A stretch of DNA of 64,000 nt from IMG/VR virus record IMGVR_UViG_3300042898_000421; one strand, given 5' to 3'. Shown here piece after piece: positions 25,912 through 32,323 of the stretch; the first letter of the stretch is position 1; each line of letters starts with the position of its first letter. The notes below the pieces were generated by a model. That model made no database searches. It was given only the letters and a program-made list of their open reading frames with translations, and was not told where the DNA came from. The position numbers and the translations under genes were made by a program. This DNA comes from a virus.

Positions 25912-25986
25912 TGGTCCGGCCACCAGGAATCGAACCTGGATTGACTGCTTAGAAGGCAGATGTTCTGTCCATTGAACTATGGCCAG
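25912..25986 (-). tRNA. tRNA-Arg (anticodon TCT)
   Basis: acceptor CTGGCCA/TGGCCGG, discriminator A plus encoded CCA, D-stem GTTC/GAAC, loop CT-TCT-AA, T-arm CCAGG-TTCGATT-CCTGG. Confidence 0.93.
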
Positions 25987-31558: not shown

Positions 31559-31825
31559 TTAGATCTCCATTTCGTATTCGTAGAACTTAACTTTAGGGTC
31601 CAATGCCTTCAACTGCTTTGCCGCAGTCATCAGTTCCTTGTAGCGACGATTGACTTCTGTGCGGCTCAGTTCGCCATCACAGGTCAAGTTCTCCGGACTC
31701 AATGCGGCATCGATCATGTCTGCGATACGCTGGCGACCCTTGGCGCTCTGGATCTCGTATTGCTCGCCTTTGAAGAAACTGTTCCAGTGATTCTTCTGCT
31801 CGATAAACTTCTCTAGTGCTTTCAT
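31559..31825 (-). CDS. hypothetical phage protein
   Basis: LSPENLTCDGE; promoter plus SD. Confidence 0.75.
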   Translation of the reverse strand: MKALEKFIEQKNHWNSFFKGEQYEIQSAKGRQRIADMIDAALSPENLTCDGELSRTEVNRRYKELMTAAKQLKALDPKVKFYEYEMEI

Positions 31826-31880
31826 CTTTGCTCCTTAGTGTGTAAGTGTGTATTATAGCAAGAAAACAGGGGATTGTCAA

Positions 31881-32062
31881 CTACCCGTTAGTCCGTCTCT
31901 AACGTTCGGTGTGCCAAACATTACGCCCTAGTTCCCCGTCAGCAACTCGTGTAAACTTTCGTTTACAACTGCCTTCATGCCCCACAGCAACCTGTCCCCG
32001 TCGGAACTCTTCGCTTGCTGTGGGCCCTAACGGACTAGGTAACCCTGTTTATTTCTTACTAT
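31881..32062 (-). ncRNA. candidate structured non-coding RNA
   Basis: own perfect promoter (32068-96), no SD-led ORF, closing stem TAGTCCGT/ACGGACTA, 10-bp stem, GAAA tetraloop hairpin, G.U pairs valid only on the minus strand. Confidence 0.65.
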
Positions 32063-32092
32063 GCCTTATTATAGCAAGGTTTTACCAACTTG

Positions 32093-32323
32093 TCAACCAA
32101 ATGCTTTGTATAACCCTACAATGCCTATGGCTAATGATACAACGTTGACTACAGCCTGTGGCTTATTTGCCACACGGATAGCCCATGCCAAGAACGCTAC
32201 AGTGCCCACAGCGAATGCGATAATGTTATAAGGATAGACACTGGGACCTATTGCGTTGAGTACGTGCCCGGCAATGATCGCCACGGCACCTACCCATTGC
32301 AGTACTTCATTCTTATTAAACAT
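32093..32323 (-). CDS. small membrane protein
   Basis: three hydrophobic segments; stop inside a -35 box. Confidence 0.7.
   Translation of the reverse strand: MFNKNEVLQWVGAVAIIAGHVLNAIGPSVYPYNIIAFAVGTVAFLAWAIRVANKPQAVVNVVSLAIGIVGLYKAFG

What the first reader, a model, noticed from the sequence alone, without database searches (positions are those of the whole stretch)
31881..32096. Dedicated early promoter driving an ORF-less, highly structured ~180-nt RNA
Seen in the sequence: a perfect TTGACA-17-TATAAT promoter (32068-96, with operator box) is followed by no SD or credible ORF, unlike the protein-coding cassettes around it. On the minus strand the transcript folds as a closed multibranch: end-to-end stem TAGTCCGT/ACGGACTA (32030-37 with 31889-96); 10-bp CCCACAGCAA/TTGCTGTGGG arm; TGTAAAC-GAAA-GTTTACA GNRA hairpin; TGTTTGG-CACA-CCGAACG hairpin whose G.U pairs work only on this strand; and two copies of GACGGGGA, each foldable into a hairpin with a GACG loop. 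I do not recognise the family. Inference: an abundant early phage sRNA, possibly a protein sponge (repeated loop motif), anti-defence decoy or ribozyme.
Basis: partly seen in the sequence, partly recalled or inferred. Interest (0 to 1): 0.82.

Follow-up and report, generated by a model that had tools for sequence, protein, structure and literature searches.

The report
Uncatalogued folded RNA of lake phages
This stretch is a real gene for a roughly 205-base, tightly folded non-coding RNA, present once per genome in giant freshwater phages and often placed just ahead of their tRNA genes; it matches no catalogued RNA family and its job is unknown.

Summary
The promoter, the lack of a credible ORF and the strong fold are confirmed (MFE z = -5.6). 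The RNA is real. I collected 73 distinct relatives from uncultured ~350-kb freshwater phages. A 50-pair model is 90% paired, against about 40% when partners are slid, and 42 pairs show compensatory changes.

- The end-to-end stem, the second GACG hairpin and the TGTTTGG hairpin are not supported.
- The true closing helix pairs the 5' end (32061-32043) with 31871-31856, which is the spacer of the next promoter. That promoter's -35 box is one strand of helix P5.

Rfam 15 gives no match. There is also no match to T4 rnaC/rnaD, to four cultured jumbo phages tested with the family model, or to the cultured-phage collection by blastn. The family's 20-nt signature is absent from 185,579 cellular genomes.

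The RNA occurs once in each of five complete genomes. In 34 of 73 versions a tRNA, mostly Asp or Glu, starts within 200 nt downstream.

Function is inferred only. Most likely it is a stable RNA cut out of early or tRNA transcripts that binds a protein. A cis-acting leader is the main rival.

This scan had already noted the same family on other phage DNA.

The parts
32068..32096 (-). Promoter 1: -35 TTGACA (32096-32091), 17-nt spacer with GGTAAAACC box, -10 TATAAT (32073-32068). The predicted start is near 32061.
   Evidence: Exact consensus match. A sigma70-type promoter lies within 70 nt upstream of the RNA in 36 of 85 family versions.
32043..32061 (-). P1, 5' strand of the closing helix (UAGUAAGAAA, a UAA bulge, then ACAGGG).
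   Evidence: Pairs with 31871-31856 in the MFE of the extended transcript. L186 changes both strands together. In the family P1 is 20-31 bp, and 8 of its 10 modelled pairs covary.
32027..32039 (-). P2, 5' strand: CCUAG (P2a), a U bulge, CCGUUAG (P2b). It is preceded by the conserved junction UUA (32042-32040).
   Evidence: RNAalifold. Family covariation CCUAG/CUAGG versus CCUAC/GUAGG, and CCAC/GUGG versus CCGU/ACGG or GCGG.
31981..32024 (-). P3 arm: 10-bp helix CCCACAGCAA/UUGCUGUGGG. The tip helix GUUC/GGAC closes the hexaloop CGACGG (32003-31998).
   Evidence: Three compensatory pairs in the subfamily and seven in the family. The CGACGG tip occurs in 30 of 72 versions.
31973..31980 (-). Junction GCAUGAAG. 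AUGAA is more than 97% conserved in the family. CAUG may pair with the invariant UAGG at 32030-32027 (inference).
   Evidence: Consensus of 73 distinct sequences.
31950..31967 (-). P4 hairpin UGUAAAC-GAAA-GUUUACA.
   Evidence: The stem is fully exchanged in L173, L190, L183 and L186; L173 and L190 keep the GAAA loop, L183 and L186 have UUAG. The loop is GNRA in 33 of 72 versions.
31927..31942 (-). P2, 3' strand: CUGACGG, internal loop GGAA, CUAGG.
31917..31926 (-). Junction GCGUAAUGUU. GUAAUG is invariant in the family.
31884..31909 (-). P6 hairpin: CGUUAG-AGACGGA-CUAACG, extendable by CC/GG across a GAA bulge.
   Evidence: Four compensatory pairs in the subfamily. The loop is AGACGUU or AGACGGU in 45 of 72 versions.
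31875..31916 (-). P5: UGGCA (31916-31912) with UGACA (31879-31875), enclosing P6. There is one G-A mismatch in this copy.
   Evidence: Family covariation GUGCA/UGCAC, GUACA/UGUAC, GUCAA/UUGAC. In this subfamily the middle pair is U-A in 6 of 11 sequences.
31852..31880 (-). Promoter 2 (TTGACA-N17-TATAAT) for the 88-aa gene. Its -35 box is the 3' strand of P5. Its spacer plus the first two bases of its -10 box (31871-31856) form the 3' strand of P1.
   Evidence: The same fusion of RNA 3' end and promoter occurs in the L291/L020/L049 subfamily. In most relatives the next promoter or a tRNA lies beyond a longer P1.

Best explanation
Window 32061-31856 (minus strand) encodes a roughly 205-nt non-coding RNA. 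It belongs to a large, uncatalogued family that is present once per genome in uncultured ~350-kb freshwater phages.

Fold. A closing helix P1 encloses two three-way junctions. The first joins P1, P2 and P5; the second joins P2, P3 and P4. P6 sits inside P5. The junction strands UUA, UAGG, AUGAA and GUAAUG are invariant. GACG-containing loops cap P3 and P6.

Expression. The RNA is transcribed from its own strong sigma70-type promoter, or from tRNA-operon promoters in relatives. It has no terminator, so it is made as the first part of a longer transcript.

Release (inferred). In most relatives a 20-31-bp P1 abuts the next tRNA. The RNA would therefore be freed by host processing, RNase P at the tRNA and probably RNase III in P1, as a blunt, nuclease-resistant stable RNA. 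In this window P1 is shortened to 16 bp, because its 3' strand and the P5 3' strand have been recruited as the promoter of the next gene.

Action (inferred). The freed RNA acts in trans by binding a protein, most likely a host factor of RNA or translation metabolism, through its conserved junctions and GACG loops.
For: Shown:
- Fold stability: z = -5.56 for the 181-nt core and -5.89 for the extended transcript.
- On a structure-blind MAFFT alignment of 39 members, 85% of cells pair against 38-44% in slid controls, and 41 of 50 pairs show compensatory change.
- On 73 distinct sequences, 90.4% pair, 42 of 50 pairs are compensatory, and the covariation score is 0.468 against at most 0.094 when slid; 0 of 500 shuffles reach it.
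- The 12 highest mutual-information column pairs of the whole alignment all belong to the model.
- Many G-U pairs make the fold specific to this strand.
- The family model finds one copy in 98 of 100 loci and exactly one in each of 5 complete genomes.
- The ORF is not conserved.
- All tRNAs in the loci lie on the RNA's strand. 34 of 73 versions have a tRNA within 200 nt downstream, often 0-7 nt after P1.
- 36 of 85 versions have a promoter, and 17 of 85 a boxA-like GTTCTTTAAAAA, within 70 nt upstream.

Weak: contigs of 155 and 158 nt lying on the RNA occur in two metatranscriptome studies.
Against: - No experiment shows the RNA's ends, its stability or a partner.
- The metatranscriptome evidence is contigs only. 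DNA carry-over is not excluded, and one contig runs on through promoter 2.
- This copy's P1 is only 16 bp with a bulge, which makes it a poor RNase III substrate.
- The five complete phage genomes encode no RNase III or Ro60, so any processing or partner must come from the host or from an unrecognised protein.
- The RNA's promoter-proximal position fits a cis-acting leader equally well.
Confidence: 0.5

Rival explanations
1. The RNA is a cis-acting leader. As the first transcribed element, it modifies the transcribing RNA polymerase or protects the transcript, so that downstream tRNAs or early genes are fully transcribed. This would work like the HK022 put RNAs, the EAR element or rrn leaders.
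For: The RNA is promoter-proximal in at least 53 of 85 versions, and a boxA-like element directly precedes it in tRNA-operon lineages. It has no terminator of its own and is always co-oriented with downstream tRNAs or genes. A hairpin-plus-promoter cassette array lies downstream in this window.
Against: A 20-31-bp closing helix that abuts tRNAs on one or both sides (L246) looks like an excisable stable RNA. There is one copy per genome although there are dozens of promoters. No similarity to EAR or other Rfam leaders was found. Downstream genes are unrelated across lineages.
Confidence: 0.2
2. The RNA is a free-standing imitation of a ribosomal RNA site, namely the 16S head junction h28/h29/h42/h43, which is the uS7 platform. 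It would be carried in an rrn-like operon and act as a decoy for a ribosomal protein or assembly factor.
For: The conserved junction motifs CAUGAA, AGUAAU and GUUCC occur in the same order, and at comparable junctions, in E. coli 16S at 1328, 1346 and 1379. Some members carry AAGCGGCGGAGCAUGUAGG against 16S 936-954 AAGCGGUGGAGCAUGUGGU. The operon layout is rrn-like: tandem promoters, boxA-like element, long flanking stem, then tRNA-Glu or tRNA-Asp.
Against: The best profile match to the rrnB operon has E = 0.85. There is no SSU or LSU hit in Rfam even at E up to 10. The same ordered motif triple also occurs once by chance on the opposite strand of the 6-kb locus. The AGCAU stretch is a variable internal loop in the family but a paired segment of h30 in 16S.
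Confidence: 0.07
3. The RNA is a ribozyme, for example one that processes itself or the neighbouring tRNA.
For: It has a complex fold with invariant junction nucleotides and sits directly next to RNA processing sites.
Against: No match to any ribozyme family in Rfam. No conserved candidate cleavage site was identified. Host RNase P and RNase III suffice to explain release.
Confidence: 0.05
4. There is no functional RNA. The region would be a small-peptide gene (MKAVVNESLHELLTGN), or DNA-level promoter and operator sequence that happens to fold.
For: An AUG is conserved in the junction CAUGAA, and two promoters flank or overlap the region.
Against: From that AUG the distance to the conserved GUAAUG falls in frames 0, 1 and 2 in 28, 21 and 13 sequences. 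Peptide lengths run from 2 to 38 aa. Five sequences lack ATG there and six more could not be scored for lack of a motif. No Shine-Dalgarno sequence is present. Compensatory changes, including G-U pairs, cannot be explained at the DNA or protein level.
Confidence: 0.02

Closest known systems
Phage T4 rnaC and rnaD (species 1 and 2 stable RNAs, 139 and 119 nt) in the T4 tRNA cluster
   Same: They are small, stable, non-tRNA RNAs encoded with phage tRNA genes, co-transcribed with them and released by host processing. Their function has never been established.
   Different: No homology: the family model finds nothing in the T4 tRNA region with filters off (best 6.9 bits, at another place). T4 rnaC carries a tRNA-like T arm that this RNA lacks. 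This RNA is larger and has two three-way junctions.
GOLLD and ROOL RNAs (Rfam; Weinberg et al. 2017, PMC5737381; Kretsch et al., 10.1101/2024.12.08.627333)
   Same: They are ornate structured RNAs of phages and prophages with unknown biochemical role. From my own knowledge, not checked in the papers, they are often found next to tRNA genes.
   Different: From my own knowledge they are several hundred nt long. No Rfam match here. Whether this RNA multimerises is unknown.
RNase III processing stems flanking 16S and 23S rRNA in rrn operons, and the intergenic RNase III sites of T7 early transcripts
   Same: A long helix formed by sequences on both sides of a stable RNA, in an operon that also carries tRNAs. 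In some lineages this lies behind tandem promoters and a boxA-like element.
   Different: Cleavage is not shown. The cargo is a 170-nt RNA, not rRNA. In this window the stem is only 16 bp and doubles as a promoter.
YrlA-type bacterial and phage Y RNAs with Ro60/Rsr
   Same: Closed by pairing of the 5' and 3' ends. From my own knowledge, they are found in some phage tRNA islands.
   Different: No RF02553 hit, no tRNA-like module, and no TROVE/Ro60 gene in five complete genomes.
HK022 put RNAs and EAR (processive antitermination RNAs)
   Same: Structured RNAs placed directly behind early promoters and ahead of long operons.
   Different: From my own knowledge those are short two-hairpin or pseudoknotted leaders without a long closing helix. 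No sequence or model match was found, and cis action is untested here.

Membership tests
Any Rfam 15 family | Score at or above the family's gathering threshold, or at least a suggestive E-value. | tested here: not met
   The window at gathering threshold gives only a tRNA at 25915-25986. For 31700-32300 at E up to 10, the only match is a CRISPR-DR24 noise hit of 14.5 bits. Ten other loci give tRNAs only. The best-scoring family member, L236, gives noise only.
T4 rnaC/rnaD stable RNAs | Sequence and structure homology to T4 species 1 or 2 RNA. | tested here: not met
   cmsearch with R1, filters off, on T4 68000-75000: no hit on rnaC or rnaD; the best hit is 6.9 bits elsewhere.
T4 rnaC/rnaD stable RNAs | Encoded within or next to a phage tRNA cluster, on the same strand. 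| tested here: met
   Met for the family: 52 of 66 loci hold same-strand tRNAs, and 34 of 73 versions have one within 200 nt downstream. In this window the nearest tRNA (Arg-TCT) is 5.9 kb downstream.
Y RNA / YrlA | Ro60 (TROVE) partner gene and a tRNA-like domain. | tested here: not met
   PF05731 is absent from 5 complete genomes, with positive controls matching. No RF02553 hit.
CsrB/RsmZ-type protein sponge | Many A(N)GGA motifs displayed in hairpin loops. | tested here: not met
   Only the P6 loop of this subfamily (AGACGGA) fits. The family's loops are AGACGUU, AGACGGU and CGACGG, and there are at most two such loops per RNA.
6S RNA | A long, mostly double-stranded rod with a central open-promoter-like bubble. 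| tested here: not met
   The covariation-supported fold is multibranched with two three-way junctions. No Rfam 6S hit.
Riboswitch or other cis-regulatory aptamer | A conserved aptamer followed by an expression platform, upstream of functionally related genes. | tested here: not met
   There is no terminator or Shine-Dalgarno-sequestering helix. Downstream are tRNAs of several identities or unrelated small ORFs.
RNase III processing stem (rrn-type) | About 20 bp or more of nearly perfect duplex formed by the flanks of a stable RNA. | tested here: inconclusive
   Met in most relatives, with P1 of 20-31 bp. In this window P1 is 10 + 6 bp with a 3-nt bulge. Cleavage itself cannot be tested with these tools.
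16S rRNA head-junction (uS7 site) mimic | Significant sequence or structure similarity to 16S h28/h29/h42/h43. | tested here: inconclusive
   nhmmer against rrnB: best E = 0.85. The ordered CAUGAA..AGUAAU..GUUCC triple is present in 16S, and 19 of 5000 shuffles also contain it, but a chance copy lies on the opposite strand. No SSU hit in Rfam.

The most novel reading that the evidence does not exclude
The RNA is a miniature, free-standing copy of the 16S rRNA head junction (h28/h29/h42/h43, the uS7 platform). It would be expressed from an rrn-like phage operon with tandem promoters, a boxA-like element, a long processing stem and then tRNA-Glu or tRNA-Asp. Its role would be to capture a ribosomal protein or assembly factor during infection.
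Probability: 0.07. Interest if true: 0.9.

Novelty: new variant of a known kind. Interest (0 to 1): 0.68.

Why it matters
Large structured RNAs with many covarying helices and invariant junctions usually do something specific. In the past such finds have proved to be ribozymes, riboswitches, ribonucleoprotein scaffolds or self-assembling RNAs.

This one looks like a single-copy core gene of a widespread clade of giant freshwater phages. It is wired into their tRNA operons or early promoters, and it is absent from Rfam, from the cultured phages tested and from cellular genomes.

It adds a well-defined family, with a tested secondary structure and a working covariance model, to the unexplained class of stable RNAs that phages co-express with tRNAs. 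T4 species 1 and 2 have been in that class for some 50 years.

The window's copy also shows an unusual economy. Two RNA helix strands have been recruited as the -35 box and spacer of the next gene's promoter.

Tried and rejected
- blastn of the window RNA and of the L236 RNA against 50,697 cultured phage records: no match.
- The window's own assembly is not held. The nearest record shares only promoter words.
- Two-anchor DNA patterns in viral and metagenome contigs found only close relatives plus chance hits in high-GC coding DNA: L179, L180, L185, L192. L178, in a tRNA-rich stretch, was judged by eye only.
- The 20-nt signature in 185,579 GTDB genomes gave two chance hits that fail the family model.
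- The family model found nothing in RsoM2USA, XacN1, Atu_ph07 or PA5oct. The tool's first-look filter may miss weak matches.
- PHROGs gave no function for the flanking small proteins.
- No RNase III or Ro60 gene in five complete genomes.
- A T-box-like 'specifier' idea, with GAC in the P6 loop reading tRNA-Asp, was rejected. The loop is the same whether the next tRNA is Asp, Leu or Ser, or when no tRNA follows.
- A loop-E pseudoknot between CAUGAA and AGUAAUG cannot be tested, because both strands are invariant, and it is sterically doubtful. A local UAGG/CAUG pairing is simpler.
- No tertiary pair stood out in the mutual-information scan.
- Pairing of the P6 or P3 GACGG loops with CCGU of P2 as a switch was rejected, because the loops do not follow P2b when it changes to CCAC/GUGG.
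- RNA runs X19 and X20 cover the neighbouring genes from relatives but not the RNA. This is not evidence of absence.
- Paper searches found no description of this RNA.

Full report
**What is in the window.** Read on the minus strand, a perfect TTGACA-N17-TATAAT promoter lies at 32096-32068. It is one of 16 perfect promoters on that strand between 23.8 and 34.3 kb; 0.07 are expected for the whole window. About 200 nt follow without a Shine-Dalgarno sequence or a credible ORF. A second perfect promoter then sits at 31880-31852, ahead of an 88-aa gene. The 181-nt core folds at -65.3 kcal/mol (z = -5.56). Extended through the second promoter it folds at -83.1 kcal/mol (z = -5.89). Rfam 15 gives nothing at gathering thresholds, nor at E up to 10.

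**Relatives.** The neighbouring genes, DNA patterns and a profile search turned up relatives in IMG/VR and JGI lake and river metagenomes. First came 11 distinct close versions. A covariance model, R1, was built from 39 diverse members. It finds exactly one hit in 98 of 100 loci and one in each of five complete 345-383-kb genomes. It finds nothing in the following:
- the T4 tRNA region, including rnaC and rnaD;
- the cultured jumbo phages RsoM2USA, XacN1, Atu_ph07 and PA5oct. PA5oct is the closest cultured relative by DnaB, at 52% identity.

The signature is absent from 185,579 representative cellular genomes, apart from two chance hits that fail R1.

**Structure.** P1 closes the molecule. P2 is a long-range helix in two parts, P2a and P2b, with an internal loop. 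It encloses the P3 arm, the junction (C/U)AUGAAR and hairpin P4, which is often GNRA-capped. After P2 comes the invariant GUAAUG(A), then P5 enclosing hairpin P6, whose loop is mostly AGACGKU. The evidence for this model is:
- On a MAFFT alignment made without reference to structure, the 50 pairs are 85% paired against 38-44% when partners are slid. 41 pairs show compensatory change.
- On 73 distinct sequences aligned to the model, 90.4% are paired, 42 pairs are compensatory, and the covariation score is 0.468 against at most 0.094 when slid.
- An unbiased mutual-information ranking of all column pairs puts 12 model pairs in the top 12.

- End-to-end stem. Its five inner pairs never vary. Its outer three decay, and one position is unpaired in 5 of 11 sequences. 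Its 3' half is really the loop and arm of P6, which has four compensatory pairs of its own.
- Second GACG hairpin. This segment is the 3' strand of P2.
- TGTTTGG hairpin. It has no compensatory change, and its innermost pair is broken in 7 of 11 sequences.

**The closing helix and the second promoter.** In this window P1 pairs 32061-32043 with 31871-31856. The latter is the spacer, plus the first two bases of the -10 box, of promoter 2. The -35 hexamer of promoter 2 is the 3' strand of P5. L186 changes both P1 strands together. In most relatives P1 is a 20-31-bp duplex of widely varying sequence, and the next promoter or a tRNA lies beyond it. A second subfamily (L291, L020, L049) shows the same fusion of RNA 3' end and promoter.

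**Not a peptide gene.** The AUG of the conserved CAUGAA opens frames of 2-38 aa. Their distance to the conserved GUAAUG falls in all three frames (28, 21 and 13 sequences). Five sequences lack the ATG, and six more could not be scored because a motif was not found. None has a Shine-Dalgarno sequence.

**Genomic setting.**
- In 52 of 66 loci the RNA shares its strand with tRNA genes, and every tRNA in those loci is on that strand.
- 34 of 73 distinct versions have a tRNA within 200 nt downstream: Asp-GTC 16, Glu-TTC 12, Leu 3, Ser 2, Ile 1. The tRNA often starts 0-7 nt after the full P1.
- In L246 the RNA is wedged between two tRNAs.
- 36 of 85 versions have a sigma70-type promoter within 70 nt upstream.
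- 17 of 85 have a boxA-like GTTCTTTAAAAA plus a hairpin within 70 nt upstream; in L236 tandem promoters lie further upstream.
- The position in the genome varies. Only 19 of 73 loci around the 88-aa gene hold the RNA.

**Expression.** Only contigs could be laid. Two metatranscriptome studies each hold one short contig lying on the RNA: 158 nt at 31832-31989 (lake, 2017) and 155 nt at 31877-32024 (river, 2019). Both carry the compensatory P6 variant seen in L057. This is a weak hint, because DNA carry-over is not excluded.

**How it probably works.**
- Shown: it is a conserved, single-copy, strand-specific structured RNA gene without its own terminator, placed first in early or tRNA transcripts.
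- Inferred: host RNase P, at the abutting tRNA, and RNase III, in the long P1, release a blunt, stable RNA. That RNA acts in trans through its invariant junctions and GACG loops, most likely on a protein.
- Caveats: the five complete genomes encode no RNase III or Ro60. In this window the short P1 makes RNase III cleavage uncertain.
- Main rival: a cis-acting leader of the put, EAR or rrn type.

**The rRNA-mimic idea.** Earlier notes of this scan on phage RNAs that copy rRNA sites prompted a test. Some motifs match 16S in order (CAUGAA, AGUAAU and GUUCC at 1328, 1346 and 1379), and there is one 19-nt near-match to 936-954. However, the profile E-value is 0.85, and a chance copy of the motif triple lies on the opposite strand. 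I keep this only as a low-probability reading.

**Earlier notes of this scan.** The same family was already noted on other phage genomes. Three notes share 39-40 of 74 sampled words with the L236 member. One follow-up reached a similar verdict. My results were obtained independently and agree on five points:
- The family is real.
- It is absent from Rfam.
- It sits at the head of tRNA operons in some phages.
- It is a stand-alone early gene in others.
- It occurs once per genome.

Other notes describe a shared closing-stem 'wrapper' around different RNA cargos. I saw one such neighbour, a second small cassette with a very similar stem directly after the RNA in L288 and L220.

**Verdict.** This is a genuine member of a large, publicly undescribed phage RNA family.

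Noticed in passing
L288:9970-10060 (same in L220): Directly after the RNA lies a second cassette of about 85 nt. It is closed by nearly the same stem (UAUAUGUAAACA / UGUGUUUUCAUAUA) but carries a different cargo. This fits the idea of a shared closing-stem wrapper around several RNAs.
   Followed up: partly
L236:8370-8425 and 16 other family versions: A boxA-like GTTCTTTAAAAA, then a GCAA- or GUAA-capped hairpin (AACCC...GGGTT), lie just ahead of the RNA. In L236 they follow two sigma70-type promoters about 100 bp apart. The layout resembles an rrn operon leader.
   Followed up: partly
L038, L097, L219 and L237, downstream of the RNA: A recurring element GGCATTCAGGTAG(N)CCCTGATGTAAGTCC follows the RNA in several loci. 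It looks like a small hairpin of unknown role.
   Followed up: no
L195, L197, L206, L219, L221, L255 and L295, upstream of the RNA: A conserved stretch of about 50 nt (...GGATACGRAGMGAGTTTRGAGACTCKGYCT...) precedes the RNA in place of a promoter. It could be the end of another structured RNA.
   Followed up: no
L097:1775-1850: A tRNA-like sequence with a normal T arm and a CCA end follows the RNA, but Rfam did not call it a tRNA at gathering threshold. It may be an unusual tRNA.
   Followed up: no
window 25912-25986 (-): A tRNA-Arg(TCT) sits inside the early promoter-cassette array, 5.9 kb downstream of the RNA on the same strand.
   Followed up: no
window 31559-31825 (-): The 88-aa protein downstream has at least 576 relatives in IMG/VR but no PHROG or known function. 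Relatives of it are present in two metatranscriptome runs.
   Followed up: no
window 31998-32003, 31936-31940 and 31893-31897 (-): This subfamily has three copies of GACGG, all complementary to the single CCGU(U) at 32033-32029. One copy is the P2 strand; two are hairpin loops. Alternative pairings are therefore possible in this subfamily, but they are not conserved across the family.
   Followed up: partly
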